A DNA stretch of 64,000 nucleotides from Alphaproteobacteria bacterium. GTDB lineage: Bacteria; Pseudomonadota; Alphaproteobacteria; Rickettsiales; JABCZZ01. A program made the position numbers and the translations under genes. Each line of letters starts with the position of its first letter. Position 1 is the first letter of the stretch. The notes under the pieces are model-generated. The model was not told the origin of the DNA and did not search any database. It was given only the letters and a program-made list of their open reading frames with translations. Positions 8,434 through 63,434 of the stretch are shown here, piece by piece. The stretch is taken from contig JAMIFV010000005.1 in the NCBI GenBank assembly GCA_035906055.1, forward strand, positions 26,996 through 90,995, read 5' to 3'.

Positions 8434-8445
8434 AACCTGTCCCTC

Positions 8446-8700: not shown

Positions 8701-8701
8701 A

Positions 8702-43417: not shown

Positions 43418-43530
43418 GGAACCTGCCTGATCAAAATAAATAGCATCTATGCCGTGTAATATAAGTATGCCCGCAAAATTGCAATGCACAACTTGACCCA
43501 ATACAGCGGGGGCGTTATAGCGGGTGGCAT

Positions 43531-43605
43531 GGCTGGGTAGCAAAGTGGTAATGCGCGGGTCTGCAAAACCTGTATGCGGCGGTTCGATTCCGCCCCCGGC
43601 CTCCA
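43531..43605 (+). tRNA. tRNA-Cys (anticodon GCA)
   Basis: Manual fold: acceptor GGCTGGG/CCCGGCC (one G-U pair), anticodon stem CGGGT/ACCTG with loop CTGCAAA, T arm GGCGG-TTCGATT-CCGCC, discriminator U73 (a Cys identity element) and encoded CCA. Confidence 0.9.
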
Positions 43606-43772
43606 AAACTTCAGTCGCCTCCGTTCATCCCTGTTCGTATGTGTTCGTATAAGCCTTTGTTTTGACAAAGATTATTACGCGCATATATTCGTAACAATCC
43701 GCCACTAATTTTGCTCAGCCGTACAAGTATGGGGGCATTATTGGGGGCATCAGGAAAGGACTGGGGGCATCT

Positions 43773-45014
43773 ATGACGCTAAACAAGGGTGATTGCAGAG
43801 ACGCGGAGCCGAAAGACAAGGCCTATAAGCTGAGCGACGGCGGAGGCTTGTATCTTGAAGTCGTGCCGAACGGCGGAAAGTATTGGCGAATGAAATACCG
43901 CTTTAACCGTAAAGAGAAGCGCCTTTCTTTTGGCGTCTATCCCATCGTGGAACTGGAAGATGCCCGCGACATGCGCCACCAGGCGAAGAAGCTGCTAAGC
44001 CAAGGCATCGACCCTAGCAAGGTAAAGCAGGAGAATGAAACCAAGCGTATGCGTGAGGCGCAGAATACTTTTAAGGCGGTTGCGCTGGAGTGGCATGAGA
44101 ACCGCAAAGATACTTGGAGCGAAGATTATGCCAGCAACACACTACGCCGCATGGAGGCAGATGTTTTTCCGTACATAGGAACCATGCCTATTGCTACCAT
44201 TACCGCCCCGGACGTGCTTGATGCACTGAGGAAGATCGAAAAGCGCGGCTCGTTTGATATTGCAGGCCGCACGCGGCAGATATGCGGCCAGGTATTCCGC
44301 TATGGCATCCAGACCGGCAGGTGCGACCGTGATATTGCAGTTGATCTGAGAGGGGCTCTAAAAACACGCAAGACAAAGCATTTTGCCGCTATTGACGTTA
44401 AAGAGATACCGGAACTGCTGGAAGCATTGGAACGTAACGATGCCAGGCTCTACGCCAGGACACGCCGTGCTATCAAATTATCAATGCTGGTATTCACCAG
44501 GCCGGGGGAAATACGCCAGGCCGAGTGGAAAGAAATCAACTTTGAGGAAAAGCAGTGGATCATTCCCGCCGAGCGTATGAAGATGCGACGTCCGTTGATT
44601 GTGCCGCTCTCCAGCCAGGCGATTCAGATTTTACGGGAGCAGCAGGAGGAGACGGGGCACATCAATACTCCCTTTGTCTTTCCTGGCCAGCACAGTCCCC
44701 GAAAGCCGATGTGTGATGCCGCCGTGCGGGTCGCACTACACAAGCTGGGCTTCAAGGGCCGCATGACGGCTCACGGCTTCCGTGCTCTCGCCCGCACCGG
44801 CATACGGGAGAAGCTCAATTACGATCCCGATGTGATCGAATGCCAGTTGGCGCACAAAGCAGCCGGGCCGCTGGGTGAAGCCTACAATCGCGCACAGTTT
44901 GTCGAGAAGCGACGTGTTATGATGCAGGAATGGGCGGATTACATTGATTCCGTCATGGAAGCGCGCAAACAACACCCGCAACGCTCGGTAAGTGAGGTAA
45001 AAAATGCTGCTTGA
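43773..45014 (+). CDS. int: tyrosine recombinase, P4-type integrase (DUF4102 N-terminal arm-binding domain)
   Basis: AEPKDKAYKLSDGGGLYLEVVPNGGKYWRMKYRFNRKEKRLSFGVYP matches the DUF4102 signature. The catalytic region has R(TRRAIKL), HGFR, LAH and GEAYNRA (the Tyr). Confidence 0.95.
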   Translation: MTLNKGDCRDAEPKDKAYKLSDGGGLYLEVVPNGGKYWRMKYRFNRKEKRLSFGVYPIVELEDARDMRHQAKKLLSQGIDPSKVKQENETKRMREAQNTFKAVALEWHENRKDTWSEDYASNTLRRMEADVFPYIGTMPIATITAPDVLDALRKIEKRGSFDIAGRTRQICGQVFRYGIQTGRCDRDIAVDLRGALKTRKTKHFAAIDVKEIPELLEALERNDARLYARTRRAIKLSMLVFTRPGEIRQAEWKEINFEEKQWIIPAERMKMRRPLIVPLSSQAIQILREQQEETGHINTPFVFPGQHSPRKPMCDAAVRVALHKLGFKGRMTAHGFRALARTGIREKLNYDPDVIECQLAHKAAGPLGEAYNRAQFVEKRRVMMQEWADYIDSVMEARKQHPQRSVSEVKNAA

Positions 45015-45549
45015 TAAGCGAAAGCGCGGAATTGAGAAAAAGATTGTGGAGCAGTCATCGGAGATGATGGAAGCATTTCTCCATCCAGACGCAAAGAAAC
45101 ACAAATCGCCACAATGGAAGGATCAGTTCAAGAAGCAGGCTATGCTGCTACTGTGGGAGTGTTACTTCGAGGAAATCCCTCCTCCCATAGAGCTTGTCAT
45201 GCTCAGCAGCTGCATTCTTGGCAAGCGGCATGACTGGTCTACCGCTAAGTTTGCCGTAGTGAGCTATCTTGCCTTAACATGCCCGCCTTCAAAAGCCGTC
45301 AAAGATTTACCATCAGGCGTAAAGTCCGAAGTCAGCCGCATCATCAAACGGCATGGCGGGCTGCAAAAGAAGCCGCGCCAGCTGGATTCATTCGTAGGCA
45401 GCGAAGAACACGACTATCGCCGCATCTTCGACAAATGGATCAAGGATGAAATTTTCATCCGCCTTTGGCAGAAGAAATACGTTCAATATCAGAACCGACC
45501 GTACAATGCTGAGGCAATTGAAATCGCAAAAATGGCGCTGGAAGAGTAA
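45004..45549 (+). CDS. hypothetical protein (island)
   Basis: 181-aa ORF overlapping the int stop by 11 nt. No motif recognised. Confidence 0.4.
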   Translation: MLLDKRKRGIEKKIVEQSSEMMEAFLHPDAKKHKSPQWKDQFKKQAMLLLWECYFEEIPPPIELVMLSSCILGKRHDWSTAKFAVVSYLALTCPPSKAVKDLPSGVKSEVSRIIKRHGGLQKKPRQLDSFVGSEEHDYRRIFDKWIKDEIFIRLWQKKYVQYQNRPYNAEAIEIAKMALEE

Positions 45550-45670
45550 ATTTTTATAAACGTAAAATATCGCGTTTTTTCCCCATTAGCGCCCACATTC
45601 TTTTCTATTTACCCTGATTCGTACATGGACTGCACCGTTCATGCTTATTGCCAGAATCAGGAGAAAAGAT

Positions 45671-45898
45671 ATGACGACGTATCATGATAAGCCATTATAT
45701 TCTATTCCCGAAATCATCGAAATGGTCGGGATCGGACGCACGCGGCTGTATCAGGAGTTGAACAGTGAGCGGTTGAAAGCGGTTAAGATCGGTAAACGCA
45801 CCTGTGTCACTAAAGCCAGCCTGGAAACATGGCTTTCAAAACTGGATGGATACCTCCCTGAGAAGCAGAGGGGGAAAGCTAATGTATGCAGCAAGTAA
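45671..45898 (+). CDS. alpA: AlpA-family helix-turn-helix excisionase/regulator
   Basis: LYSIPEIIEMVGIGRTRLYQELNSERLKAVKIGKRTCVTKASLETWL is an AlpA/MerR-type HTH. Start trimmed to MTTYHDK. Confidence 0.75.
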   Translation: MTTYHDKPLYSIPEIIEMVGIGRTRLYQELNSERLKAVKIGKRTCVTKASLETWLSKLDGYLPEKQRGKANVCSK

Positions 45899-48395
45899 CG
45901 CCAATAGTTTAGTCGAGATCAATGACCACCCTAATCTACCAATATGGGCAGAGAAAATCGATGAAACCGACATAACCGGCATCTCAAATAAGGATTTTCT
46001 TGAAGTCACCTTTGGTGTGATAGATCAGCATGCTCAGCCCATGGTCGTAAGTTTTCTGGAATCTCCCGCCAGTTGCGATCAACGCGCATGGCATGGATTA
46101 GCTAGAAAGCACGCTGAGGCGACGGATTACCTGTTCGACGGTGGCAACAACTATTTCAGCTTGTCCGTATTTTCCCCAGACGAAAGCGGTTTCTACGCCC
46201 GTAAAAAAAACCGCTTTTATGAACAACGTGCAATCATGCTTGATGATGTAGGAACAAAAGTCCCGCTGGAACGGTTGATTGTTGAGCCAACCGCATTGAT
46301 CCAAACATCGGAAGGAAACTATCAGGCGGTCTATCTCCTGTCGGAACCGATCCAAAATGCAGAAGATGCGGATGCATTGATGAAGGCTTTTATCGGAGCT
46401 GCTTTATGTGATCCTGGATCCGATGGCCCTACGGCTCGTCTTGCCCGCCTGCCGCGCGGTATCAACGCAAAATACACTCCGGCCTTTGTCTGCCGTCTGC
46501 GGCATTGGAATCCTAGCAAGCGCTACAGCCGGGAAGAACTGATTGCAGGTTTCGGTATAAGAGATTTTCTTTCGGTTCAAAAACCGGAGAAAGCCAAAAA
46601 AGAAAAGAAGCCACGTCCCGAAACAGGCGATCCAATCTATTTCCCGACAGATGACGAAAATCCTGTCGTCGTTGCTCTGAAAAACAAAGGCTTATATAAA
46701 ACCCCTTTGGGCAGTGGAAAAATCGACATTACATGTCCCTGGGTACATGACCACACAGATGCTGCTAATCAGGGAACGACTTATTTTGAACCGGACGATA
46801 ATTATCCTATTGGCGGATTCAACTGTTTTCACGCGCATTGCAAACACAGAAGTATCAAAAACCTGCTTGAATATCTTGAAGTAAGCCCGCGTCATGCTCG
46901 CGGAAAAGCACAAATCTACGTCAATCCGGGCGAGATGGGGCACATTCTTGATGCCGCTGAGCGCGAACTGGCAAAATCCGGGCATCATTATCAGCGCGGC
47001 GGCATGATTTCCATCGTATCGACAACGCCGGAAACCAACCATACGTCAATCATTCCGATTAAATCATCGAATGTACGGGTCGCCCTTTCCAATGCCGCCC
47101 TTTGGTATAGATACAGCTCAACCGCTGAAGACTATGTACAAATCGACCCTCCGGCAGAATATGCAAAAACTCTGTTTGATGCACCAGAATATCGCTATCT
47201 TCCAGTCCTTCGCGGGTTGGCACGGCAGCCGTATTTGCGCAGTGATGGGTCGTTGATGACAATGCCAGGATATGATCCACTAACGGGGATGTTTGGCGTT
47301 TTTGCCATGCAGGATTTTAATGTTCTTGAGAACCCGTCGCTAGATGATATGCGGAATGCTCTCCAACTTATTGAATCTCTGCTGGAGGAGTGCCCGTTCA
47401 AAAGTCCCATCGACAAAGCGGCAGCCATGTGTGCAATACTGACGGCTTCAATTCGTTCCAGTTTACCACTGGCTCCCATGTTTCACATCAGGGCACCGCA
47501 GGTAGGATCGGGGAAATCCTTCCTGTGTCGCCTGATTGCTGCTTTCGCTTCCGCCCGTTTGGGTACGCCTACGACATTTCCACAGGAGGATGAGGAATGC
47601 AGAAAACTCCTGTTAGCCGAGCTTTTGACGGCACCTGCAGTCATTGAATTTGACAATTTGACGACCGATCTTGTGGCGCATAAGAGTCTGTGCGTCGCGT
47701 TGACCTCTGAATATATGACGGATCGCATCCTTGGCGTGTCGAAGACGGCTTCCGTCAGTACACGGACGTTGTTTCTTTCCAGCGGTAATAATGTCGCCCC
47801 TGTCCAGGATATGGTGCGCAGGTGTATCACCATCGACCTCGATCCCGCCTGTGAGACGCCTGCCGCTAAGACGTACAAAAATCCCCGACTAATCGAGATG
47901 GTACTGGCAGAACGTGGAAAATACGTCTCTGCCGCCTTGACCATCATCAGGGGCTGGATCGTCGCTGGACGGCCAAAGCAGGCATGCAAGGCGCTTTCAA
48001 CCTTTAATGATTGGGTGGATCATTGCGTACAGCCACTGCTGAACTTTGGTTATGCCAATCCCATGCTTTCAGCGTTTGATGCCATGAATGCCGACCCGGA
48101 TCGAGAGGCTATTGCCAGGCTGATGAATGTCTGGAAAGATTGTTTTGAGAAAGCACCAGGCATGGTGCGCGACCTAGTAGGCCACGCTCATAGTAACATA
48201 GAGTTGGCAGAAATTCTTGAAGACATCGCACCGGACAGAAAAGGCGGATTTAACAACAAGAGCCTCGGTCGATGGCTCAAGCGCCATGCTGGGCGGGTTG
48301 TTAATGGATACCGCTTCGTTCCTGCTGATGGGTCGAGAAATGCCAGCGCGTGGAAGCTGGAATCGGTTCCATCGGTTTTATCGGTTTCCAACTAG
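45882..48395 (+). CDS. replication protein: RepB'-like primase domain + Zn-binding motif + P-loop NTPase
   Basis: Start trimmed to the ATG at 45882, after agggggaaag. MLDDVGTKV...ALIQTSEGNYQAVYLL resembles the RepB'/RSF1010 primase core (DD...ETSPgNyQ). Also carries CPWVHDHTD...FNCFHAHCKH (C/H4-type) and Walker A APQVGSGKSF with Walker B VIEFDN. Confidence 0.6.
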   Translation: MYAASNANSLVEINDHPNLPIWAEKIDETDITGISNKDFLEVTFGVIDQHAQPMVVSFLESPASCDQRAWHGLARKHAEATDYLFDGGNNYFSLSVFSPDESGFYARKKNRFYEQRAIMLDDVGTKVPLERLIVEPTALIQTSEGNYQAVYLLSEPIQNAEDADALMKAFIGAALCDPGSDGPTARLARLPRGINAKYTPAFVCRLRHWNPSKRYSREELIAGFGIRDFLSVQKPEKAKKEKKPRPETGDPIYFPTDDENPVVVALKNKGLYKTPLGSGKIDITCPWVHDHTDAANQGTTYFEPDDNYPIGGFNCFHAHCKHRSIKNLLEYLEVSPRHARGKAQIYVNPGEMGHILDAAERELAKSGHHYQRGGMISIVSTTPETNHTSIIPIKSSNVRVALSNAALWYRYSSTAEDYVQIDPPAEYAKTLFDAPEYRYLPVLRGLARQPYLRSDGSLMTMPGYDPLTGMFGVFAMQDFNVLENPSLDDMRNALQLIESLLEECPFKSPIDKAAAMCAILTASIRSSLPLAPMFHIRAPQVGSGKSFLCRLIAAFASARLGTPTTFPQEDEECRKLLLAELLTAPAVIEFDNLTTDLVAHKSLCVALTSEYMTDRILGVSKTASVSTRTLFLSSGNNVAPVQDMVRRCITIDLDPACETPAAKTYKNPRLIEMVLAERGKYVSAALTIIRGWIVAGRPKQACKALSTFNDWVDHCVQPLLNFGYANPMLSAFDAMNADPDREAIARLMNVWKDCFEKAPGMVRDLVGHAHSNIELAEILEDIAPDRKGGFNNKSLGRWLKRHAGRVVNGYRFVPADGSRNASAWKLESVPSVLSVSN

Positions 48396-49135
48396 CCGCT
48401 CAGCCGAAAGTTTTGAAGACCAGTAACCATAAGAGCGATACCAAATGCACACAGAAAAATTAGCAATATTCGTATGATAAAAACAAAGACGTTTTTCATA
48501 CACACGTCGTGCAGCTTTTGACTGTTAACGAATATATATCCTATGGAGAAAAGCAATCCGAGTATTATCGCCATGCTCGGCATTTCTTTATAAAATGCTA
48601 TGCCACTATACACACCGATGACGGCAAAAATTAGAACAGAGGCAGCGCAGATCGTATTCAGCGTACCTTCTAAGGAAATCCTTTGCAGATAGTGCTGCCA
48701 CTTTAGCGGGTACGCTTTTTTAGCGTAGGATTGCAGAAAATCTATAACTCGCTTTTCGTGATCCTTGTCATACCTATCCAAGGCAAGAAAACAAATGCCA
48801 ACATAAACCTGCGATTTTGTTCTGAGATTGTGTATCTCTTTTTCGAGCCAGGATAACCATTCCTTGACGTTTTCCTGAACGGGTTTGTTGGGGAGCAAGT
48901 ATCGCTTGCGCCAATACGCTGCCATTTGGTCATGAAAATCCTGCAAAACTCTATGATCGAACGAGTGCAAATTTTTCAATGCAGCTACAATCTCATTTTC
49001 GGGATCGGCTTCAAACCGCGCTAGATAGTGTTTGCGGCAGCCCCCCAAAATAATACCCATTGCCTTGCCGTATTGGTCGTGCTGTGCCCACTGAAAATCT
49101 GTTTTATCGCCATCGAACCGCTCGGATACGATCAT
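48392..49135 (-). CDS. hypothetical membrane protein (island)
   Basis: A soluble N-terminal ~160 aa is followed by three hydrophobic helices (ASVLIFAVIGVYSGIAF, AIILGLLFSIGYIFV, IIRILLIFLCAFGIALMV). The start overlaps the upstream gene's stop (ATGA). Confidence 0.5.
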   Translation of the reverse strand: MIVSERFDGDKTDFQWAQHDQYGKAMGIILGGCRKHYLARFEADPENEIVAALKNLHSFDHRVLQDFHDQMAAYWRKRYLLPNKPVQENVKEWLSWLEKEIHNLRTKSQVYVGICFLALDRYDKDHEKRVIDFLQSYAKKAYPLKWQHYLQRISLEGTLNTICAASVLIFAVIGVYSGIAFYKEMPSMAIILGLLFSIGYIFVNSQKLHDVCMKNVFVFIIRILLIFLCAFGIALMVTGLQNFRLSG

Positions 49136-50520: not shown

Positions 50521-50521
50521 T

Positions 50522-55500: not shown

Positions 55501-58065
55501 CAGATCCATCAAGGCCTGATCGGAATCCAATGCACCATTTCTCACCGCGCTTTCCACTATTCCTTCCGCCCCAAAGTTTTCGTCAGGCCGCAGTTCCGGG
55601 CGGAGGCGCACGGAAAGCCGCTGTGAAGCCAATAAGGCAGCCAGATAAATATCTTCCAGGTTAAGCCGCTGTTGAAGTGGCGCGCATGCCTGTAGCCTGC
55701 GGAAGCCCCATGTCACCAGTGACCGCAGAGAATCGCGTACCGAATACATTTGTAAATTGGGAGCAAGGCGCGCGGCCACCTGCCGGGAATCCGAGAAAAC
55801 CAGCACCTTGCGTCCCCGCAATGGAGCGAACCGATTAGCGCCGACCGGACTCGGGGGTTGGATTTGGAGCTGGCGTGACACCAGCGCCTGAAATGGCTGA
55901 TCACCCTTCGTTTGATGATCCTGCACCGTCGATCTATTAAATTTCGCAGCTTGGCCGCAGACAGCGCATGGCACGAATTGGCCGAGAACATCCGTATTGG
56001 TGTTGTCTTCCTGTTCGTCATCATCCGTTGCAACAGGGGCGATGCGTTCCCGGCGAATATAAACCGTTCGCGTGCGTTCCCCAAGTTGCGGGGGATTTAA
56101 TCTTCCTGTCTCAAGGTCAAAGTCAGCGGGTTCCGCCACTCCCTCCTCCTGCGGCTCTTCCAGCAGAAGATCGAGCGGCAAATTCGGACTGATGGTGCCA
56201 TCCGGCATGCGCATCCATCGGCCGGATTCCGCCCATAGCGCATTCGGATTATCGATATTGTCCGTATAGGCGCGCGCGTGCGCTGTCCCGCAGCTACGAC
56301 AGGTATATAATTCCATGACGCATGCGCCGCAGTTGCAGCGATTGCGCGGCTGGCTATACATGCGCCCGCAAATGCCGCTGCGCTCGTCATCTTTCAGTTC
56401 GGTGCATGCGGGATCCATGCAAACCCACAGGCCAGGCAGCCCACGGAAGAAATTATGAATACGGCACGGCAGCAGCCCAGCACCCATGGGGTCTTCGCGG
56501 GCGACGCTTCCCAAGGCTAACAGCGAGGTAACTGCTTTATCGGCTGTCCTTTGGTTCGCGCCGGGGAAAAGTTCTGCTCCCAATTTGGAAATGGGATGAG
56601 CTTGTTTCATGGTAATATTAATCATTTTTTTAAGCGGCCCGTAGTCGGAGAGCGCATTAAATAAATCCCGATCTAGCCCATCTCCACCTTTGGTATCTCT
56701 GGCTTGGAGCAAAGGCTTTATCGATGCGAGGCGGGTTTTTTCATCGGGCGAATAAAACGCTTCCAGGTCAATGCCTGCCAATAATTCGGCATCCTTTGCA
56801 GAACCCGCCGAATCCTGCGGCTTTAGATCCAGCGTGCCGACGATGGGCACGAATGTTTCTGCGGGCACGCCTGCCAGTTGCCCGCCGAACTCCGGCGCAT
56901 AGTCAATATCCTGAAAGCTGGCGGTCGCGCATATAACTTGAAAGCGCTCCGGTGGGATTTCAAGCCGTTCCCGAAGGCGGCGGAGCAGCAGTCCCACCTC
57001 GGCACCAGCTGCGCCGCGGTAAAGATGTGCCTCGTCCAATACAACGAGAATCTTTTCCTTGGGATTCTGCGCAAGCCACTCGCGTGTTTGATTAAAGATC
57101 GGGCGCTCGATGGGGCGCATCAACATATATTCCAACATGGAATAGTTCGTGACAAGCAGATCAGGCGTCGCCTCTTGCACCTCATGGCGCGTCAGCAATT
57201 CCGAATCATCATTTAATGTTACCGCGCGGGCGAATTCACCCGTTTTGCGGTTCTTCCAGTTGGAACCCTTATCCCCATACCACGCGGCCAGGTCAGGCTT
57301 TGCAGGCCATTTCCCGCGTGATTTCAACTGATCCAGCAGATGTTTTGCCGTGGCATGCCCTTCGGACGAAGTGTCATCGGCCTGTTGCTGAATCTGGACA
57401 TAGAAATCATCAAAGGATTTTAATTTTACAGAGTCCTTTTTTGAGGTTCTCACGCCAGCATAGGGCGTCCGGCTGGTGTAGCGGGCGAAGCGCGGGGGTC
57501 TGCCCGCCCAGCCGTTGAATTTATCCACCAGGCGCTTATCCCCGAATAACGCGCGCAAGCGGCCAAGCTGGTCATTCACCAGCGCGTTCATTGGGTATAG
57601 CAGTAGCGCGCGCGTGGCAGGCTGTGCGAAGGCTTTGGGATTCGCGGCGGCTTCTCTCGCCAGTTTGCCGAGGATCGGCAGCAAGAACGATTCCGTCTTA
57701 CCCGAGCCGGTGCCGGTCATGATGATGAGGTTTTTTCCTTCCACCAGGCTTTGCCTGATGGATTCGTATTGGTGGCTGTAGGGCGGGTTATAGATAATTC
57801 TCGGCAGGCCATTCGAAGCGCTGGACAATGCTTCGTACACCTCGAGTGCAGCTGGCGGCAGACCTGGGATCTCATTAAAGCGCTTGCCGGCCGTATAGCG
57901 GGGTGTGGATTCCAGGTACGGTATCTGGAAAGTAACGCCTCTTTCCTCCAGCAATGCCCGGCGCTGATTGATCAGAATCGAATTACTGATGTGGTAAGTC
58001 GCCTCGATATAATCCGTGAGCGCGCCATGGAGTTCCGCGATGGTTTCTTGAATAGTTTTCGACAT
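52498..58065 (-). CDS. druE: DruE-like giant SF2 DEAH helicase with DUF1998-type Zn modules
   Basis: The 1855-aa protein has a Q-like motif PYSHQ and motif I MTGTGSGKTESF (res ~116-126). Motif II is VVLDEAHLY (res ~341-349), and motif VI is YQQRAGRAGRRG (res ~1153-1164). Cys clusters include CTECGF..CRACGG (~1426-1458), CTKCG and CPEHCDASCYRCLRSFKNKFEH (~1694-1715). An RBS ggggag lies upstream of the ATG. Confidence 0.8.
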   Translation of the reverse strand: MSKTIQETIAELHGALTDYIEATYHISNSILINQRRALLEERGVTFQIPYLESTPRYTAGKRFNEIPGLPPAALEVYEALSSASNGLPRIIYNPPYSHQYESIRQSLVEGKNLIIMTGTGSGKTESFLLPILGKLAREAAANPKAFAQPATRALLLYPMNALVNDQLGRLRALFGDKRLVDKFNGWAGRPPRFARYTSRTPYAGVRTSKKDSVKLKSFDDFYVQIQQQADDTSSEGHATAKHLLDQLKSRGKWPAKPDLAAWYGDKGSNWKNRKTGEFARAVTLNDDSELLTRHEVQEATPDLLVTNYSMLEYMLMRPIERPIFNQTREWLAQNPKEKILVVLDEAHLYRGAAGAEVGLLLRRLRERLEIPPERFQVICATASFQDIDYAPEFGGQLAGVPAETFVPIVGTLDLKPQDSAGSAKDAELLAGIDLEAFYSPDEKTRLASIKPLLQARDTKGGDGLDRDLFNALSDYGPLKKMINITMKQAHPISKLGAELFPGANQRTADKAVTSLLALGSVAREDPMGAGLLPCRIHNFFRGLPGLWVCMDPACTELKDDERSGICGRMYSQPRNRCNCGACVMELYTCRSCGTAHARAYTDNIDNPNALWAESGRWMRMPDGTISPNLPLDLLLEEPQEEGVAEPADFDLETGRLNPPQLGERTRTVYIRRERIAPVATDDDEQEDNTNTDVLGQFVPCAVCGQAAKFNRSTVQDHQTKGDQPFQALVSRQLQIQPPSPVGANRFAPLRGRKVLVFSDSRQVAARLAPNLQMYSVRDSLRSLVTWGFRRLQACAPLQQRLNLEDIYLAALLASQRLSVRLRPELRPDENFGAEGIVESAVRNGALDSDQALMDLWMDMRNERPPVSLLDDLMKTVLDRFLGLEALAIASFMERGQLTPALQQLPNIPGIAETPEAKVALARVWLRCWRDKGFWLGYMPTDWWQRPRRSGTSVKGHKGNFKAMDRLLQSKDSRKIFKDRWLPQLLTLFTETMDTGVPRLAGRNLSLMLGGEWVRCQACKSVHRPIPGYNICIDCGATNVAPLDPVADPVFEARKGFYRHPIVEALEDPPVAPMALIAAEHTAQLNAPQNEDIFSKAEQHELLFQDVELSWGAIGRRATAIDVLSSTTTMEVGIDIGALSGVALRNMPPGRANYQQRAGRAGRRGNAVATVVAFGSADSHDEHYFQSSDEMICGPVVDPRLTLDNADIVKRHIQAFLLQRYHQERLPDIDPEEQPDLFSVLGTVADFCTDTAILNRSDFERWLNANSAQLRQRVASWIPVELNAEERDALLENLVSNCMQALNDALRGQGGTVAALATAVEEEVAAEDGEQSGVGAESDKLLDWLLYKGILPRYAFPTDVANFCVFDRDNSTRFRTVMRFAPSQGLPIALTQYAPGKQVWIAGKCYTSGAIYAQIHEELFTAWQDRRYYFECTECGFARTFRLNEIGSRDAQDCRACGGTGTFGPGHYWLRPPGFAHPIDAEEVTSPDDMPETSYATRAKLVMATPSDEARWHPVGERVRVLTNRTHLLVSNTGPDQEGYSYCTKCGRIEASTIHTPLLTQMRAHQKPYPADNDQQCASDRISKKIVLGTDFITDIALFSMRVAAPLKLRPGYDPTNVALRTVSEALAKAACQILEIEPGELMAEFRPALTIAGSNGLESEIFLYDTLPGGAGFSSQLTGHAEPLLRAALRILKECPEHCDASCYRCLRSFKNKFEHSLLDRHVGAALVEYLLTGELPSFDERRLAASTELLCHDLQRQQVEQWTIEPNARLTIPRAGEVIVPILITKQDGKRFAVGLSGPLTDGHPANPSLREIQANSRDIEVVPINELIVRGNLARATRMVQERVYGNQQSDAA

Positions 58066-58080
58066 AAATTTCTCCCCGTA

Positions 58081-59178
58081 TTAATTCTCGCGGCTTAACC
58101 ACAGTTGTTCTTGTAGGAATCTCTCTTCCTCGATCGCTTCCTCCACCGGCACATGATAGGCAAAAAGACAATTAGGCTGTTCGACTTGACGACCAATAAT
58201 CGCAAGTTTTCGCTGCGCCCACATAGGTAACGGCATGAAGAACTCTAATAGCATTTCATCGCCGATTCTACGACTACGATAAGTCTGCCCCGATCCCCTG
58301 CAACGGTCTATGGCAAGCTGCAAGTGCCAAGCGACGTCGCATCCACGGAAACGGGCGTTTTTTAAGGGCAAATCCAGAAAACGGATCGGCTCACCATCGG
58401 CCAGTTCCACATATCCCCACAGGTCGGAGCCATACTCTTGCGGGCGTCGGGCAACGAATTTGCCAGTGTGTTTTTTTGGGACTGTCCAGCGCTTCCTATA
58501 AGATCGGGTGGATAAATCGGGATCCAGTATTTGAAGGTCTGCAATGCTGCCGCAAGGCGATTGCTGATCGAGCCTCTGCTGCATCTGCCGCAGAAATTCT
58601 TGCGCAGTTTCCCGTTTCGGAAGTTTGTGCCAGGCGCTCCATGAAATTTCCCGAAGCCCCAACTGCACTAGGGGCTTTTTTAGGTTTTCACCGCTTTCTG
58701 GCACTAAAAATCTGATAAACCCTGCATATTGAAGGCGGCTGCTAAGGGTTTCCGGCAAGGGCGACAACTCGTCACGCGCAATACCAAGAATGAAGATTTT
58801 CTCTCCCGATGGGTGAGCAACGAAAGCCGGAGGCGCAGCAAATACCCACGTTCCTTTTACATTGGAGTCCATGGTGGTGACGTTTTGCAGTTCCAAAATG
58901 TCGCCCACCACCGCCAGCATTTCCAGCACGGCATCGATACGTTCTCGGAGCGCATCTGCCGGAAGATTCTCGATGAGCTGGTTGAGGCTTTGGCACAGCG
59001 TTGCAGCCAGCAGCGTCGGGGAACAAGGGCATTGAAACCCTGCCTGGCGCCGGAGTGATGCCGCCAGAAAAATATCATCAAGGGATGAGGCTTCCTGCGC
59101 AAGCGCGGGCAGCCCAAAATAATCGCGGGAAGCGTTTATAAGCTGACTAGCACTGATTTCAGTAATGCTCATTCCCAT
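58081..59178 (-). CDS. Druantia-operon protein of unknown function (365 aa)
   Basis: ORF with two possible ATG starts (59178 or 59172), the latter forming ATGA with the upstream stop. No catalytic or binding motif recognised. Confidence 0.6.
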   Translation of the reverse strand: MGMSITEISASQLINASRDYFGLPALAQEASSLDDIFLAASLRRQAGFQCPCSPTLLAATLCQSLNQLIENLPADALRERIDAVLEMLAVVGDILELQNVTTMDSNVKGTWVFAAPPAFVAHPSGEKIFILGIARDELSPLPETLSSRLQYAGFIRFLVPESGENLKKPLVQLGLREISWSAWHKLPKRETAQEFLRQMQQRLDQQSPCGSIADLQILDPDLSTRSYRKRWTVPKKHTGKFVARRPQEYGSDLWGYVELADGEPIRFLDLPLKNARFRGCDVAWHLQLAIDRCRGSGQTYRSRRIGDEMLLEFFMPLPMWAQRKLAIIGRQVEQPNCLFAYHVPVEEAIEEERFLQEQLWLSREN

Positions 59179-62063
59179 CCTCTGTTTGGCAATTTTCTCT
59201 CTTCTGCCAAAGTTAACATTATCATTAACCGCGCGCCACGCAGTAACGCGGGATATTCTGCGATTTTATTAATATTTTCCATGGTGCCTTCACCCAACTG
59301 CTGTCTGAATCGGGAGGACATGCACGCTAAACGAATGGCAAAATCGCACACTTCCTTGTCAGAGCAGACTCCGTATCGGGAAGCGAGTTCATGAAAGCGC
59401 TGAACACACAATGCATAATCATCCTTGAACATTTCGACGCCATCGCGCCCTAAGACCGACCCAAAACCGCCGAACCTACGATCAATGTTGCTTTGCAGTT
59501 GTTGGCGCGCGGTGGGGGTATCCTCTACATTTCGGAAAGCCTGTTCAGCCGCAGCCCAGCGCCCGCCGCAAATAATAAAGTAAATTCGTTGTGCCAGCAT
59601 CTCCACCGTATGCCTGCGCCGCATCATGGAAAACGGCCCCGCAACGGGCGCGCTGTTCCAAGCGTCGATCAGTGCCATCAGTTTAGGCACCGAGGCAAGA
59701 TCAGACGGTAAAGAATGAGTATCCGGATCGATAACAAGATCATGGAAACTGGTTGCCGTAGTCGCTGAACATGCAACGAGCATCTGTCGATGGGCACCTT
59801 TTTGCGCTATATAAAGCCCGCCAGGCGGAGGTGGCTCTATGCCCTGTAAACAGTCCTCGGCAGAAATAGCCGTGGGATGGGTGGGGTGCAGGAAGCTATA
59901 GAACTGGACTTTTAATTCCGCATCATCATCCCCTGTGTCATCGCTTAAGCGCAGGACGGTTTTACGCTGCTGCGCGGCCATCAGCCAGCGAAGCGGCAAT
60001 ACCTCGCGGTATAAAGGCACATTGAAAGCACCCATTTCCTCGGCATCGACAATAAACATGCCGCAAGTGGCACGGAGGAATATGGTGGGATCGTTTTCGC
60101 GGTCGGTGAAACGCTTGATTTGCTGAGAAAGCGCTTCTGGCGAAACAGGAATCGTAAATTTACCAATTTCTTTTTTTACTAATTCCTCACCATCGTCACG
60201 CATCAAGGCAATAGAGCATGTGACCTGCCGTCCTTCCGGGCCGTAGATGTGAATGCTGGCATCGCCTTCCAGAAAAATGTCGAGTGAAGGATCGACGGGA
60301 TCGATAAAAACGGTAAGCCCTGCATGCCCCGACAGCCCCGGCGTCCACGGTTCAGGATCTCGAACAGAAAGCAATATCCTGCCTTCGGCAATGGCCTTGT
60401 CGCTGATGGAAGATATGCCACTGCGCTCCAGCGCCGTCACAGTAACCATATGCCGCCCAGGCGGAAGATCAGGAACGCGGAAAAAAATAGGACTGCCTAC
60501 GCCAGCAGCTTCCACTATTACGGGCAGCCGACCATTAAGTTGCAGGGCATAGGCATCGACGGGCGTGTCGTGGGTAAGACCGAAACATGGTGATTCCGTT
60601 GTGAGCCATTCTCCTTGGCCTACACCATCCCAAGAACGCACAGGCATGCCCGCTGGCCACAGCCTGATAGTGCGGACTATCGAAAGCCCGAGACCTTTTA
60701 AATGATCAATAATTCCATCCGTCAGCGCTGTCGGGATGGTCAGCGATTTCGCCTGTATGCCGCTGCACTGTAGGGCGCAGGGCGTAAGCATGGGAGAATT
60801 CAGGTCGGCGCTGTGCAGCAGAATATATTTCTGTCCAGCGCGCACGATCCGGCTGGTGATTTCGCGTGCGGCGCCATCCGCCCCAATGTGGAATAGCCAG
60901 ATCGGTCCGGACGTAATGAGGCATTCGCTTTGAATGAGTTGCTCTATCTGCGGATCGGTACGCTCAAAATTAAGAACCGATCTGCCAACGCCCGGCCATG
61001 ATTCAAGTATCTTTTTGCACTCCGGCAATAGCAGCCAACCACCCGGATGCTTTCTCCCATCGGTACCGACAATGCTACAGCGTGTTCCTTTGAAAAACGT
61101 GAGCAAGTTCGGAGATTGCTTCGCCAGGGTCGAAAAACCGGAAAGCTGGATGACGACTTTCCACTCGCCGTTTCCCGCATGCCACAGCACCAGTTTCGGC
61201 CTGATATTTTGCCGCTCTTCGCCAAGCACTCGTTCGCCATATTCTTCATCGTCATCCTCGCCCAAGGATGAATTACCCAATCCGCGCATCCTGATCATTT
61301 CGACCACGCGCTTGGTTTCGCGCAGCCATTCCCGCGCGTTTTGTACTTTCTCTAGATCATCGACTATGCGCTCAAGGGTCTTTTCATAAATGTGATTACC
61401 CGCCATCGAGGAGGAGGAATCATCGTAGATAAGTGCGGTGACGATGCGGCCGACTAATTCATGCTGCTGGAGGAAATTGTCAAAGCGGGAACTGGTATAA
61501 CCCACCGAGGAAGCCAATAAACGGCCTGTTTCTGCTGGGTCGCGGAAGTTATGATGCGCAAGCTGATATTTCAGGTCGTGCAGCGTTTTTGCCATCTGCA
61601 ACTGCATATCTTTCGGCAAGATGGCATGCGTGATCGGCCAGGCGATGATGGAGAAATGCCCCGCCCACGCGCCGGTTGGTTTCACGCCCGCATAGGTCTT
61701 GTGGAACTTCCGGAACCAGTTCCGGATATAATTGCGGTAAGCGCCATACCATTGCGGGGTGCGCCGCTCGAAAGTTGTCCAGTATTCGTCGCCATCATAA
61801 TCATATCCTTGCTCGGCGGCGTAGATCACCCAAAGCAGCCAGTGGCGGCCTAGATCCGCATGTTGAATTAGAAGGCGAGATTTGAGTTGGCGAAAGACAC
61901 CCTGCATTTCGTCTTGTGTCAGCCCATGCTCTAGGGCGAAAACCGGCATGTTTTTATCTTGCCGGGACGCAGCGAGGGTTGAAAAATGCTGTTCCAGTTT
62001 GGCTTGCCACGAATCCAAATTCGCGGGGCTTATATTAACATCTTTTTGGAGTGATTCACTCAC
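59169..62063 (-). CDS. Druantia-operon protein of unknown function (964 aa)
   Basis: The GTG start overlaps the druA stop (GTGA). Long uninterrupted ORF with protein-like composition. No nucleotide-binding, nuclease or methylase motif recognised. Confidence 0.65.
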   Translation of the reverse strand: MSESLQKDVNISPANLDSWQAKLEQHFSTLAASRQDKNMPVFALEHGLTQDEMQGVFRQLKSRLLIQHADLGRHWLLWVIYAAEQGYDYDGDEYWTTFERRTPQWYGAYRNYIRNWFRKFHKTYAGVKPTGAWAGHFSIIAWPITHAILPKDMQLQMAKTLHDLKYQLAHHNFRDPAETGRLLASSVGYTSSRFDNFLQQHELVGRIVTALIYDDSSSSMAGNHIYEKTLERIVDDLEKVQNAREWLRETKRVVEMIRMRGLGNSSLGEDDDEEYGERVLGEERQNIRPKLVLWHAGNGEWKVVIQLSGFSTLAKQSPNLLTFFKGTRCSIVGTDGRKHPGGWLLLPECKKILESWPGVGRSVLNFERTDPQIEQLIQSECLITSGPIWLFHIGADGAAREITSRIVRAGQKYILLHSADLNSPMLTPCALQCSGIQAKSLTIPTALTDGIIDHLKGLGLSIVRTIRLWPAGMPVRSWDGVGQGEWLTTESPCFGLTHDTPVDAYALQLNGRLPVIVEAAGVGSPIFFRVPDLPPGRHMVTVTALERSGISSISDKAIAEGRILLSVRDPEPWTPGLSGHAGLTVFIDPVDPSLDIFLEGDASIHIYGPEGRQVTCSIALMRDDGEELVKKEIGKFTIPVSPEALSQQIKRFTDRENDPTIFLRATCGMFIVDAEEMGAFNVPLYREVLPLRWLMAAQQRKTVLRLSDDTGDDDAELKVQFYSFLHPTHPTAISAEDCLQGIEPPPPGGLYIAQKGAHRQMLVACSATTATSFHDLVIDPDTHSLPSDLASVPKLMALIDAWNSAPVAGPFSMMRRRHTVEMLAQRIYFIICGGRWAAAEQAFRNVEDTPTARQQLQSNIDRRFGGFGSVLGRDGVEMFKDDYALCVQRFHELASRYGVCSDKEVCDFAIRLACMSSRFRQQLGEGTMENINKIAEYPALLRGARLMIMLTLAEERKLPNRGWE

Positions 62064-63259
62064 GCAACTCTCGCCAATTGGCGAAGGAAGATTCGGGCAT
62101 TCACCTTAAGCAAGTGAAGCAAGTCCTCCTGCCGCCATGTTAAATATTCCGGCATGCGCTCGGCGCGCGGCCGTACCCATCGCTCCAGCGCTAATTCCGA
62201 CACCTCCCTGACCGACAGCAGGGTAGAGAGATCGGGCTTGCCTTTGCCTTCCTGTAAAAGTTTCAGGCTGTTTTCTGCCAGTTCGCAAATGAACACCTCT
62301 CGCTGGATTCCGTGCTTGAGCATATCCGCTTTGAAGCCTAACTCGGACAACGCTGCGCGCGTCGTGCGCAGCCGCCAGTTCGGGCCTTCGCCATAACGGT
62401 GCATGTCTGCGTAAGGGTGCTTGATGTCGCGGAGGTATTGCCGAAGATCGGCGAAGAGATCATCGGGGATATGAAAATGCCCCCAGCCGCCGGTGTAGCC
62501 GATAGGTTTTAGGTATTGCGTATCGCCGAGCTTCACTCGGTTATAAACGGATGAACGCCCCATCGAGGAGGATGTGGTAATGGCCAGCAAGCGGGCTTTT
62601 TTCTCCTGCCCGGAGATGATGCCCACGGTTTTTCCATACGCCTTGGCAAAATCTTTATAAACTTCCTGTGTGCGCAGAAGGCACGCCACCAGCTTCCCGA
62701 CGAGCAGAGTATTATAGGGCGGGATTGCCCCTAAAACATAGGCATCCAGAATATTTGCGAGGCGCTGACCCCTTTGTTCGCTATTCCAGCCGATCAGCTT
62801 ATCCCGAACCGAAAGATTGAAGACAGGGTCGCCAATGGCGATGATACCCATCAGTTTACCGTTGCTTTCGTCCCATACAAGGTAGCGCAAGCGCCGCCCG
62901 AACCCGTTCGAAACGGGCACCGCCCATGTTAGGGCTGCCATCCTAAATAAATCTGACTCCCATGTGTCGCTGTATACCCGTTGTAGAACGGGGCGTATTG
63001 TGGTGGGGTCAATATCAGCACCGGTGGCAAAATGCTTTGCCAACTTTGGTAGTTGATCCGTGATAAAATCTCGATTTTTTGCTAATTTTTCTTTGCGCTG
63101 TGCTAGATGTAAATCCCGTACTATTTCCTTGCCGGTGCCCGGCAGGACTAAGGCACCATCTTCACCTTTATGAAACCCCAATTTCACAAGATGTCTTCTA
63201 AGGCGCCGTTTTAGATTTGCCTCGCGTGTAAAGGCGGGAATTGCAGTGCAATTGCTCAT
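62060..63259 (-). CDS. druA: DruA-like protein (DUF4338-like)
   Basis: GFGRRLRYLVWDESNGKLMGIIAIGDPVFNLSVRDKLIGWNSEQRGQRLANILDAYVLGAIPPYNTLLVGKLVA matches my recollection of the DUF4338 core (RyLv.D...G..lG...f...a..l..RD.wIGW). The start is set at the ATG at 63259, preceded by aggggag-8 nt; alternatives are ATG 63298 and GTG 63310. Confidence 0.7.
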   Translation of the reverse strand: MSNCTAIPAFTREANLKRRLRRHLVKLGFHKGEDGALVLPGTGKEIVRDLHLAQRKEKLAKNRDFITDQLPKLAKHFATGADIDPTTIRPVLQRVYSDTWESDLFRMAALTWAVPVSNGFGRRLRYLVWDESNGKLMGIIAIGDPVFNLSVRDKLIGWNSEQRGQRLANILDAYVLGAIPPYNTLLVGKLVACLLRTQEVYKDFAKAYGKTVGIISGQEKKARLLAITTSSSMGRSSVYNRVKLGDTQYLKPIGYTGGWGHFHIPDDLFADLRQYLRDIKHPYADMHRYGEGPNWRLRTTRAALSELGFKADMLKHGIQREVFICELAENSLKLLQEGKGKPDLSTLLSVREVSELALERWVRPRAERMPEYLTWRQEDLLHLLKVNARIFLRQLARVA

Positions 63260-63383
63260 TGATATATCTCCCCTAGGGGCACTCTCGTTTTTAGTCATAT
63301 GGCCCCGCACAAACTACCAAGTAAGTGTGTTGTTGCAAACACTTAAAACCGATCAGGATAACCGACTATTAACTGCGGTGCGT

Positions 63384-63422
63384 GTGCAGCGGGGAAGTTG
63401 GGAGCAACTTCCCGCACTGCAC
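63384..63422. terminator. GC-rich hairpin downstream of the outer-membrane-protein gene
   Basis: gtgcagcggggaagtt-gggagc-aacttcccgcactgcac is a long imperfect stem 13 nt after the stop at 63435. No U tract on either strand, so its function as a terminator is uncertain. Confidence 0.4.
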
Positions 63423-63434
63423 AGCCGATACAAA

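What the first reader, a model, noticed from the sequence alone, without database searches (positions are those of the whole stretch)
43531..63434. tRNA-Cys-targeting island with a satellite-like backbone carrying the defence operon
The tRNA-Cys(GCA) is followed within 168 nt by a DUF4102-type (P4-like) integrase. Next come a small ORF, an AlpA-type excisionase and a primase/P-loop replication protein. This layout is typical of integrative satellites and islands, which are known hot spots for anti-phage cargo. The distal half carries the Druantia-like operon. I found no copy of the tRNA 3' end (ttcgattccgcccccggcctcca) further right in the window. The attR site is therefore degenerate or lies beyond 64000, or the island is an old, fixed one.
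Basis: partly seen in the sequence, partly recalled or inferred. Interest (0 to 1): 0.55.

Follow-up and report, generated by a model that had tools for sequence, protein, structure and literature searches.

The report
Mobile defence island at tRNA-Cys
This is a real 21-kb mobile genomic island inserted at the end of a tRNA-Cys gene by a phage-P4-type integrase; it carries its own replication gene and a Druantia anti-phage operon, and it is a well-delimited but fairly ordinary example of how bacteria trade defence genes.

Summary
tRNA-Cys(GCA) lies at 43531-43605. After it come a P4-family integrase, an integrase-overlapping ORF, an AlpA/excisionase-type HTH protein and a RepB-primase/P-loop replication protein. 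A DruA-o964-DruD-DruE-helicase operon fills the distal half.

An identical public contig (0 mismatches over 14.5 kb) extends the sequence past the window. It shows the missing attR: a 14-nt exact copy of the tRNA 3' end (GCCCCCGGCCTCCA) at 64763-64776.

Both island ends carry TGGGGGCA(T) boxes. These have the same sequence, 12-nt period and geometry as the annotated attP arm repeats of phage P4.

Relatives sit at tRNA-Cys in other alphaproteobacterial genomes. They share int and o181 but carry three different replication modules and different cargo (Druantia, type I R-M plus a RelA/SpoT-like gene, a giant helicase-nuclease, Czc efflux). One 13.6-kb sister island is 99.85-99.99% identical in three unrelated genomic contexts.

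"Satellite-like" is a fair description of the layout, which resembles PICMI (int, overlapping gene, alpA, primase). Membership of P4-like, PICI or PICMI satellites fails, and I found no evidence that the island is packaged into phage particles. It is a new member of a known kind.

The parts
43531..43605 (+). tRNA-Cys(GCA), the integration target. It is intact because the island supplies an identical 3' end.
   Evidence: ARAGORN; Rfam RF00005, 64.6 bits. PCMT-tRNA-Cys synteny is conserved in 8 distant alphaproteobacterial loci.
43592..43605 (+). attL core GCCCCCGGCCTCCA. Its exact 14-nt direct repeat (the attR core) is at 64763-64776 in the extended sequence, outside the window.
   Evidence: It is the only repeat of 12 nt or more from the tRNA region in 68 kb. 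1 of 300 Markov simulations reached 14 nt.
43662..43689 (+). Sigma-70-like promoter (TTGACA-16-TATATT, 11 of 12 positions) upstream of int. The TTGACA stretch is conserved in L037 and L040.
   Evidence: This is a consensus match only.
43730..43770 (+). Three arm-type boxes TGGGGGCAT (starts 43730, 43742, 43762) between the attL core and the int ATG. They correspond to the P' arm. Two more boxes, in the P arm, are at 64679 and 64691, 72-84 nt left of the attR core and outside the window.
   Evidence: 5 of 6 + strand copies in 68 kb lie at the island ends, against 1.7 expected. Motif, 12-nt period and geometry match the annotated 'attP arm sequence repeat' features of P4. The boxes are conserved across relatives.
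43773..45014 (+). P4-family tyrosine integrase (413 aa).
   Evidence: Pfam PF13356, PF22022 and PF00589; phrog_1; 40.8% identical to P4 Int; 88% to L037 and 67% to L021.
45004..45549 (+). o181, a gene that overlaps int by 11 nt. It is part of the conserved backbone. Its function is unknown; by position it resembles PICMI iolg, so it is a candidate excision accessory.
   Evidence: No family hit. 87% identical in L037, 64% in L040, and 30% (E 3e-14) to o202 of the sister islands. The AF2 model is helical but has low confidence (pLDDT 61).
45671..45898 (+). AlpA/excisionase-type HTH protein (75 aa as called; the ORF can start at 45641).
   Evidence: PF12728 HTH_17 at 1.9e-8; TIGR01764 'excise' below its cut-off; phrog_66 excisionase/regulator; gene call.
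45882..48395 (+). Replication protein (837 aa): an N-terminal RepB-type primase, a Cys/His cluster, and a C-terminal P-loop NTPase.
   Evidence: PF16793, 25.7 bits against a cut-off of 24.3. PHROGs 29234, 10537, 19930 and 4861. Invariant DD, C-H-C-H-C and GSGKS columns. More than 1000 homologues. Only the C-terminal domain is found in phages and small plasmids.
48392..49135 (-). o247, a protein with a hydrophobic C-terminus and no family assignment. A homologue follows rep in L025.
   Evidence: 45% identical in L025.
49132..49419 (-). BamE/OsmE-like lipoprotein (95 aa, lipobox LLAAC). It is a conserved backbone gene.
   Evidence: PF04355. 75% identical in L037, and present at the same place in L040.
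49936..50520 (+). o194, a basic protein that is the last conserved backbone gene. The variable cargo starts right after it.
   Evidence: 67% identical in L037. DNA is 76% identical over 49606-50511, and similarity ends there.
50522..52501 (-). hel659, a P-loop/UvrD-like helicase with a possible N-terminal PD-(D/E)xK (NERD-like) part. It overlaps the druE stop and is the fifth gene of the cassette.
   Evidence: Weak AAA_19/UvrD hits and PADLOC 'NERD+UvrD' at 4.8e-6. A 659-aa gene follows DruE in the same way in L027 and L028; its similarity to hel659 was not compared.
52498..58065 (-). DruE (1855 aa).
   Evidence: PADLOC DruE1, E 0, 2029 bits; DEAD, Helicase_C and MZB domains.
58081..59178 (-). 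DruD.
   Evidence: PADLOC DruD1, 5e-127.
59169..62063 (-). o964, which sits where DruB and DruC would be but matches neither.
   Evidence: No Pfam, PADLOC (even at E 10), NCBIfam or PHROG hit. The family has at least 1647 members of about 955 aa. The AF2 model (pLDDT 77) has helical ends and an array of beta-sandwich domains, with only generic Foldseek matches.
62060..63310 (-). DruA (called as 399 aa, 62060-63259).
   Evidence: PF14236 at 9.8e-83; PADLOC DruA1 at 9.5e-202.
63435..64000 (-). Outer-membrane beta-barrel protein gene, which is cargo. The full gene is 63435-64127 (230 aa) and runs off the window. About 640 nt of non-coding DNA with the P-arm boxes and attR follow it.
   Evidence: PF13505; open frame to the window end; gene call in L019.

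Best explanation
What it is. This is a 21.2-kb integrative genomic island. It runs from window 43592 to position 64776 of the extended contig and is inserted into the 3' end of tRNA-Cys(GCA).

Integration and excision.
- Shown: the integration module is of the phage-P4 type.
- Inferred: a heterobivalent tyrosine integrase binds TGGGGGCAT arm boxes (two in the P arm, three in the P' arm) and recombines a 14-bp core that duplicates the tRNA end, so the tRNA stays intact.
- Inferred: excision needs the AlpA-type HTH protein as directionality factor, and possibly the int-overlapping o181.

Replication (inferred). The excised circle is replicated by its own RepB-primase/P-loop protein.

Modular organisation (shown by comparison).
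- The blocks are int-o181, then a swappable alpA and replicon block, then the lipoprotein and o194, then a cargo slot that runs to attR.
- Here the slot holds a five-gene Druantia-I-like cassette (DruA, o964, DruD, DruE, hel659) and an OMP gene. These presumably protect the host, and so the island, from phages.

Transfer between cells. This must depend on a helper, because no conjugation or capsid genes are present. Which helper (phage capsid, conjugative element or vesicle) is not resolved.
For: Boundaries.
- attL and attR share a 14-nt exact repeat.
- The arm boxes cluster at both ends.
- The boxes match the annotated arm repeats of P4 attP in sequence, 12-nt period and spacing.
- Int is 41% identical to P4 Int.
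- The boxes are conserved in relatives while the surrounding DNA diverges.
- The compositional shift starts at the tRNA and ends right of attR.

Mobility of the family.
- A 13.6-kb sister island (int 67%, rep 77% identical) is 99.85-99.99% identical in three genomes whose flanks and tRNA-Cys sequences differ.
- It has the same attR layout.

Modularity.
- L037 has int 88%, o181 87%, the lipoprotein 75% and o194 67% identical, but an AAA_25 replicon and R-M/RelA_SpoT cargo.
- L040 has the same int-o181 with a Toprim_3+DUF927 replicon and helicase-nuclease cargo.

Integrity and dependence on a helper.
- The ORFs for int, o181, alpA and rep are intact.
- No relaxase, T4SS, capsid or terminase domains are present in any island ORF.

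Defence cargo.
Against: - No empty site and no excised circle was seen. No close relative of the host exists in the GTDB representatives (best PCMT match 45% identical).
- Both public assemblies carry the island.
- The predicted attB and attP junctions are absent from JGI metagenomes.
- The 14-nt core alone is only moderately improbable (about 1 in 300).
- No iterons or origin were found near rep.
- The roles of AlpA, o181 and Rep are inferred from homology and position. They were not tested.
- The Druantia cassette lacks recognisable DruB and DruC, so its activity is assumed.
Confidence: 0.85

Rival explanations
1. It is a true phage satellite, working like a PICMI or PICI. A helper phage induces alpA, the island excises and replicates through Rep, and it is packaged into helper capsids. 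The defence cargo acts against competing phages.
For: - The layout of int, an int-overlapping gene, alpA and a primase matches PICMI (PMC10803314).
- An autonomous replicon that is swapped between relatives is typical of satellites.
- The integration module is homologous to that of the satellite P4.
- One IMG/VR contig of 7 kb has the same int-ORF-HTH-rep order.
- Near-identical copies occur in unrelated genomes.
Against: - No homologue of Sid, Psu, Delta, epsilon or alpha.
- No terS, capsid or rpp-type hit.
- No P2/P4 cos sequence (the cos sequence was recalled from memory).
- Only 1 of 2.9 million IMG/VR contigs holds a rep relative, and none holds o181.
- At 21 kb it is large for a satellite.
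- int+AlpA+primase alone is flagged as unreliable evidence (PMC10085698).
Confidence: 0.25
2. It is an integrative mobilisable element, working like SGI1 or an MGI. After excision and Rep-driven replication it is transferred by the conjugation machinery of a co-resident plasmid or ICE, through an oriT that has not been recognised.
For: - int-xis-rep backbones without transfer genes are typical of mobilisable islands (my own knowledge of SGI1 and the MGIs).
- The N-terminal domain is the RepB primase type known from mobilisable IncQ plasmids.
- Cargo in sister islands is metal efflux, which is typical of plasmid-borne or ICE-borne traits.
- A full-length rep homologue lies in a Legionella replicon typed as MOBH-mobilisable.
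Against: - No relaxase or coupling-protein domain in any island ORF.
- No oriT could be tested.
- No conjugative element is present in the window.
Confidence: 0.2
3. It is a fixed, no longer mobile remnant of an island. The genes are kept for the defence function only.
For: - No excised form or empty site was found.
- The composition of the Druantia part is only mildly atypical (z 0.7-1.7).
Against: - The 14-nt repeats are perfect.
- All five arm boxes are intact.
- The int, o181, alpA and rep ORFs are intact, with conserved catalytic and Walker motifs.
- Sister elements transferred very recently.
Confidence: 0.12

Closest known systems
Integration module of satellite phage P4 (Int plus attP with arm repeats; GenBank X51522)
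   Same: - The integrase is 41% identical to P4 Int over 95% of its length.
- The arm boxes are TGGGGGCA(T), in tandem pairs with a 12-nt period.
- Two boxes lie left of the core. Two or three lie right of it, just before the int ATG.
- The core is the 3' end of a tRNA gene.
   Different: - The target is tRNA-Cys with a 14-bp core. In P4 the annotated core is 20 bp, and I recall the target as tRNA-Leu.
- Nothing else of P4 is present: no alpha, sid, delta, psu, epsilon, cI or cos.
PICMI (phage-inducible chromosomal minimalist islands of Vibrionaceae; PMC10803314)
   Same: - The gene order is int, a gene overlapping the end of int, alpA, then the primase or replication gene, then accessory or defence genes.
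- HTH_17 is one of the AlpA profiles accepted in the PICMI model.
   Different: - The primase family differs: RepB-primase/P-loop here, DUF3987/DUF5906 in PICMI.
- Integration is at tRNA-Cys, not downstream of fis.
- The size is 21 kb against about 6 kb.
- No helper phage is known.
- o181 has no detected relation to iolg families.
PICI 'Type C' of SatelliteFinder (int + AlpA + primase/replicase only; PMC10085698)
   Same: It has exactly these three core functions.
   Different: It lacks every hijacking or packaging component. The authors themselves exclude Type C as possibly being other mobile elements.
Tycheposons: tRNA-targeting, cargo-carrying integrative elements of marine bacteria (bioRxiv 10.1101/2020.12.28.424599)
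   Same: - A tyrosine recombinase specific for one tRNA.
- A partial tRNA copy at the far end.
- A replication module with a primase or helicase.
- Variable cargo, and modules shared between cargo-carrying and PICI-like forms.
   Different: - The integrase here is P4-type. Tycheposon integrases form their own clade.
- The host lineage and the cargo (defence, metal efflux) differ.
- Enrichment in vesicles or capsids was not tested here.
Druantia type I (DruA-B-C-D-E)
   Same: DruA, DruD and DruE match the type I models strongly, and the gene order DruA ... DruD-DruE is kept.
   Different: - DruB and DruC are replaced by one 964-aa protein with no model hit.
- An extra helicase gene follows DruE.
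- The four-gene form also exists on Nitrosococcus watsonii pNWAT01.

Membership tests
tRNA-integrated genomic island with a P4-type integration module | P4-family tyrosine integrase next to the 3' end of a tRNA gene | tested here: met
   The integrase starts 167 nt after tRNA-Cys and is 40.8% identical to P4 Int.
tRNA-integrated genomic island with a P4-type integration module | Direct repeat of the tRNA 3' end at the distal boundary (attR) | tested here: met
   A 14-nt exact repeat lies at 64763-64776 of the extended contig. About 1 in 300 simulations reached this length by chance. It lies outside the window.
tRNA-integrated genomic island with a P4-type integration module | Arm-type integrase-binding repeats flanking the core on both sides | tested here: met
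   TGGGGGCA(T) occurs three times at attL and twice at attR. Motif and 12-nt period are the same as in the annotated P4 attP arm repeats. Binding itself was not tested.
tRNA-integrated genomic island with a P4-type integration module | Composition that departs from the host core | tested here: met
   GC is 0.518 against 0.561. Tetranucleotide z reaches 6.3 in the backbone, 2.3-2.4 at the right end and -1.9 beyond attR.
tRNA-integrated genomic island with a P4-type integration module | Absent from the same site in related genomes (empty attB) | tested here: inconclusive
   No close relative is available. Eight distant alphaproteobacterial loci keep PCMT-tRNA-Cys, and none of them holds any of the island's cargo genes; only one (L006) has a distant integrase match (25% identity) about 7 kb from the tRNA.
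tRNA-integrated genomic island with a P4-type integration module | Related elements at the same target in other genomes, with different cargo | tested here: met
   L021-L024, L032, L037 and L040.
P4-like satellite (SatelliteFinder: int, Psu, Delta, Sid, AlpA, epsilon, alpha) | Psu, Delta and Sid capsid-hijacking genes | tested here: not met
   tblastn of the P4 proteins against the island gave E > 0.6. No PHROG hits for the unassigned ORFs.
P4-like satellite (SatelliteFinder: int, Psu, Delta, Sid, AlpA, epsilon, alpha) | Alpha primase-helicase and epsilon | tested here: not met
   No similarity to P4 alpha or epsilon. Rep is a functional analogue from another family.
P4-like satellite (SatelliteFinder: int, Psu, Delta, Sid, AlpA, epsilon, alpha) | Integrase and AlpA-type regulator | tested here: met
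PICI / cfPICI | Packaging or capsid-redirection genes (terS, ppi, rpp, capsid morphogenesis) in addition to int, alpA and pri-rep | tested here: not met
   No such Pfam or PHROG hit in any island ORF. Only the 'Type C' trio is present (PMC10085698).
PICMI | int, alpA and a DUF3987/DUF5906 primase, integrated downstream of fis, about 6 kb | tested here: not met
   int, an int-overlapping ORF and an HTH_17 alpA are present. But the primase is RepB-type, the site is tRNA-Cys and the size is 21 kb.
Integrative conjugative or mobilisable element | Relaxase, coupling protein or T4SS | tested here: not met
   No such domains.
Integrative conjugative or mobilisable element | oriT recognised by a helper relaxase | not testable with these tools
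   No oriT library was available.
Druantia type I | DruA, DruD and DruE | tested here: met
   PADLOC: DruA1 9.5e-202, DruD1 5e-127, DruE1 E 0.
Druantia type I | DruB and DruC | tested here: not met
   The only gene between druA and druD (964 aa) has no PADLOC hit, even at E 10.

The most novel reading that the evidence does not exclude
The backbone may define an undescribed, widespread family of helper-dependent elements in Alphaproteobacteria and beyond. The backbone is a P4-type int, an int-overlapping gene, AlpA and an exchangeable replicon.
- These elements would be phage satellites, or elements spread in vesicles or capsids.
- They would have a fixed cargo slot that shuttles defence systems and metal-resistance operons between genomes.
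- The Rep protein used here has more than 1000 homologues.
- The cargo here would be an unclassified five-gene Druantia variant. In it a protein with an array of beta-sandwich domains replaces DruB and DruC, and a nuclease-helicase is added.
Probability: 0.2. Interest if true: 0.6.

Novelty: new member of a known kind. Interest (0 to 1): 0.35.

Why it matters
The island shows, at base-pair resolution, how a Druantia operon is carried in a poorly sampled alphaproteobacterial lineage. The vehicle is a P4-type integration module joined to interchangeable replication and cargo modules.

The conservation of the TGGGGGCAT arm boxes from coliphage P4 to alphaproteobacterial islands is a tidy result. 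It makes att-site prediction for this integrase family easy.

The relatives offer a natural experiment: the same int-o181 with three replicons and at least four kinds of cargo. This could be used to study module exchange in defence islands.

None of this overturns current views. Defence systems on tRNA-integrated, P4-integrase elements are well known.

Tried and rejected
Looking for close relatives and an empty site.
- A genome-contig scan with the OMP fragment found nothing.
- The scan with PCMT found only relatives of 45% identity or less, so no empty-site comparison was possible.
- The first exact look-up of DruD failed because the called start differs.
- The PCMT look-up found only the two island-bearing assemblies.
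- The right-flank proteins have no homologues in any fetched locus.
- The predicted attB and attP junctions are absent from JGI metagenomes. This is uninformative, because the organism seems not to be in that collection.

Looking for signs of packaging into phage particles.
- The IMG/VR scan with Rep alone found nothing. With a Rep alignment it found one contig. With o181 it found nothing.
- No P2/P4 cos sequence is present.

Replication protein.
- Rep has no sequence match in the PDB.
- No iterons or an origin were found in the backbone.

Structure predictions.
- The o181 model has too low a confidence (pLDDT 61) to search with.
- The o964 model gave only generic hits to Ig-like or macroglobulin-domain arrays, with TM about 0.1.

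Rejected ideas.
- The 42731-43606 ORF is not a gene that overlaps the tRNA. The real PCMT gene starts downstream of it.
- The OMP gene is not a pseudogene. The frame is open and simply runs off the window.
- The island is not a P4-like satellite.

Full report
**1. The observation**

ARAGORN and Rfam place tRNA-Cys(GCA) at 43531-43605.
- int, 43773-45014;
- o181, 45004-45549, which overlaps int by 11 nt;
- an HTH_17/excisionase-type gene ending at 45898;
- an 837-aa replication gene, 45882-48395.

The integrase carries Arm-DNA-bind_3 (ex-DUF4102), Phage_int_M and Phage_integrase domains. The replication protein has a RepB-primase N-terminus just above Pfam's cut-off. It also has an invariant Cys/His cluster and a Walker A motif, GSGKS.

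The rest of the island follows:
- On the minus strand come o247 and a BamE/OsmE-like lipoprotein.
- o194 is on the plus strand.
- A co-directional minus-strand operon then runs hel659-DruE-DruD-o964-DruA, with PADLOC E-values from 1e-123 to 0 for DruA, DruD and DruE.
- An OMP gene runs off the window end.

No copy of the tRNA 3' end exists further right in the window. The left flank is ordinary core: trpD, trpC, DUF599, a DUF2497/PopZ-like gene and PCMT.

**2. Finding the right end**

The Rep protein has a 100% identical entry in the public protein collection. Its contigs are Logan assemblies of SRR18360465 and SRR18360466, and they match the window with 0 mismatches over 14.5-19.4 kb. They extend it to position 68065.

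In that extension the 14-mer GCCCCCGGCCTCCA, which forms the last 14 nt of the tRNA, recurs once in direct orientation at 64763-64776. It is the only repeat of 12 nt or more from the tRNA region in 68 kb. Only 1 of 300 Markov-chain simulations of the downstream DNA gave a repeat that long.

There is independent support from the motif TGGGGGCA:
- It occurs six times on the + strand of the 68 kb, against 1.7 expected.
- Five of the six copies lie at the island ends.
- Three copies (43730, 43742, 43762) lie between the attL core and the int ATG.
- Two copies (64679, 64691) lie 72-84 nt left of the attR core.
- Both tandem pairs have a 12-nt period.

The island is thus 43592-64776, about 21.2 kb. 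It includes the OMP gene (63435-64127) and about 640 nt of non-coding DNA. Right of attR lie a lipoprotein gene and an ECF-sigma cluster.

Composition agrees with these limits:

| Segment | GC | Tetranucleotide z |
|---|---|---|
| Core | 0.561 | – |
| Backbone | 0.487 | 3.4-6.3 |
| Druantia part | 0.536 | 0.7-1.7 |
| Right end | 0.508 | 2.3-2.4 |
| Beyond attR | 0.544 | -1.9 |

**3. The integration module is of the P4 type**

The integrase is 40.8% identical to P4 Int over 95% of its length. GenBank X51522 annotates 'attP arm sequence repeat' features for P4:
- agTGGGGGCAca and aaaGGGGGCAta lie left of the 20-bp core.
- atTGGGGGCAta and atTGGGGGCAtc lie right of it, just before the int ATG.

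The motif, the 12-nt tandem period and the arrangement are the same as in this island: two boxes left of the core, and two or three boxes right of it next to int. Distances agree to within about 10 nt.

The boxes are also conserved at the same positions in relatives whose surrounding DNA has diverged (alignment A4). I therefore read them as binding sites for the integrase's N-terminal arm domain. Binding itself is inferred, not tested.

**4. Relatives show a mobile, modular family**

(a) Sister islands.
- They have Rep 77%, Int 67% and AlpA 43% identical to the proteins here. o202 is 30% identical to o181 (E 3e-14).
- They lie directly after tRNA-Cys in L021/L024, L022 and L023.
- The gene order is int, o202 (overlapping int by 4 nt), HTH_17, rep, then czcCBA-type efflux genes.
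- The 13.6-kb element is 99.85-99.99% identical between three genomes. Their flanks do not align and their tRNA-Cys sequences differ. That is direct evidence of recent horizontal transfer and of tRNA-Cys specificity.
- The right end has the same layout as here: two GGGGCA boxes 12 nt apart, about 85 nt of spacer, TTCGAAAGAG, and then a partial copy of the tRNA 3' end at which identity between hosts stops. Here the corresponding sequence is TTCCGAAGAG.

(b) The closest relatives by int and o181.
- L037 has Int 88%, o181 87%, the lipoprotein 75% and o194 67% identical. DNA identity is 85% over 43529-45628 and 76% over 49606-50511.
- L037 replaces Rep by an AAA_25 protein, leaving a 21-codon remnant of the rep 3' end. 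It carries a RelA_SpoT-like gene and a type I R-M system.
- L040 has int, o181 and HTH_17, then a Toprim_3+DUF927 replicon, a lipoprotein, DUF3644 and a helicase-nuclease of more than 1610 aa.

(c) More distant members.
- L032 has Cus/Czc-type cargo at tRNA-Cys.
- L025 has type I R-M and Abi_C, with int at the far end.
- A Legionella adelaidensis locus lies next to the tmRNA gene.

The structure is therefore: int-o181, then alpA and an exchangeable replicon, then the lipoprotein and o194, then a cargo slot up to attR.

**5. Is it a satellite?**

By layout it resembles PICMI, which has int, an int-overlapping gene needed for excision, alpA and a primase (PMC10803314). It also resembles 'Type C PICI'. 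The SatelliteFinder authors warn that Type C may be other mobile elements (PMC10085698).

Membership tests fail:
- Of the 13 P4 proteins, only Int has a match.
- There is no terS, capsid or hijacking hit.
- There is no P2/P4 cos sequence (I recalled the cos sequence from memory).
- The primase family and the integration site differ from PICMI.

Other evidence on Rep and on packaging:
- Rep has no full-length relative in 50,697 phage records. Only its P-loop domain occurs in phages and small plasmids.
- Only one IMG/VR contig holds a Rep relative. It is 7 kb, has the same int-ORF-HTH-rep order, and has 84-87-nt repeats at both ends.
- No IMG/VR contig holds o181.
- No relaxase or T4SS is present either.

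Transfer must depend on a helper, but the route is open. Tycheposons and VEIMEs are comparable environmental elements.

**6. Cargo**

The cassette DruA-o964-DruD-DruE plus a 659-aa gene in the position of hel659 recurs as a unit next to a serine recombinase in L027 and L028, where o964 is 70% identical. I did not compare that 659-aa gene with hel659.

The four-gene form occurs on Nitrosococcus watsonii pNWAT01 and elsewhere.

o964 has at least 1647 homologues of about 955 aa and no model hit. Its AF2 model (pLDDT 77) shows helical ends around an array of beta-sandwich domains, with only generic structural matches. By PADLOC's components this is not a canonical type I system.

**7. Verdict**

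The island is real and its boundaries are now resolved. Its integration mechanism can be assigned with confidence to the P4 type.

- The right end lies beyond the window and includes the OMP gene.
- 'Satellite-like' describes the layout only. Membership is not shown.

It is a new member of a known kind, and of moderate interest.

Noticed in passing
window 59169-62063 (-): A 964-aa protein sits between DruA and DruD and has no Pfam, PADLOC, NCBIfam or PHROG hit. Its family has at least 1647 members of about 955 aa. The predicted fold has helical ends and an array of about five beta-sandwich domains. It seems to take the place of DruB and DruC in a widespread four-gene Druantia-I-like form, which is also found on Nitrosococcus watsonii pNWAT01.
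   Followed up: partly
window 50522-52501 (-): hel659 overlaps the druE stop codon, and a 659-aa gene follows DruE in the same way in L027 and L028 (their similarity was not compared). It is P-loop/UvrD-like, with a possible N-terminal PD-(D/E)xK motif (LLIEVKSH) and a weak PADLOC 'NERD+UvrD' hit. It may be an accessory fifth gene of this Druantia variant or a separate one-gene system.
   Followed up: partly
window 5000-9000: This is a second compositionally atypical patch (GC 0.47-0.50, tetranucleotide z 2.5-3.7). It holds two ORFs without Pfam hits (6137-7519 +, 460 aa; 7648-8433 -, 261 aa). There is no tRNA or integrase nearby.
   Followed up: partly
L031 1-360, 921-1007, 3568-3654, 6031-7075 (IMG/VR UViG_3300050139_000223): This 7-kb contig has int, an ORF, an HTH gene and rep. 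It carries 84-87-nt repeats full of AAACCGA-type sub-repeats at both ends in inverted orientation, and one copy inside the 5' end of rep. They could be iterons or an origin, or an assembly artefact of a circular element. GGGGTAAC boxes lie before int.
   Followed up: no
L037 12676-12738: A 21-codon remnant of the rep C-terminus (71% identical) lies downstream of the AAA_25 replication gene. It looks like a scar left when one replicon was replaced by another.
   Followed up: no
window 48392-49419 (-) and equivalents in L037, L040: A BamE/OsmE-like lipoprotein gene is conserved just after the replication module. It is always preceded by a variable gene (247, 394 or 224 aa); the 247-aa protein here has a hydrophobic C-terminus. 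The pair could be a surface or exclusion function of the backbone.
   Followed up: no
window 39017; extended 69397: The Logan contigs that cover these positions stop at the same two points: the left-hand contig of each run starts at window 39017, and the right-hand end is at about 69397. This suggests repeats or strain variation there. In SRR18360465 the island is also split at about 49500, in the non-coding stretch before o194.
   Followed up: no
L001, L004, L007, L008: In several distant alphaproteobacteria tRNA-Cys is followed within 0.5-1.7 kb by tRNA-Asn(GTT). No tRNA-Asn is present in the 3.3 kb right of attR here.
   Followed up: partly
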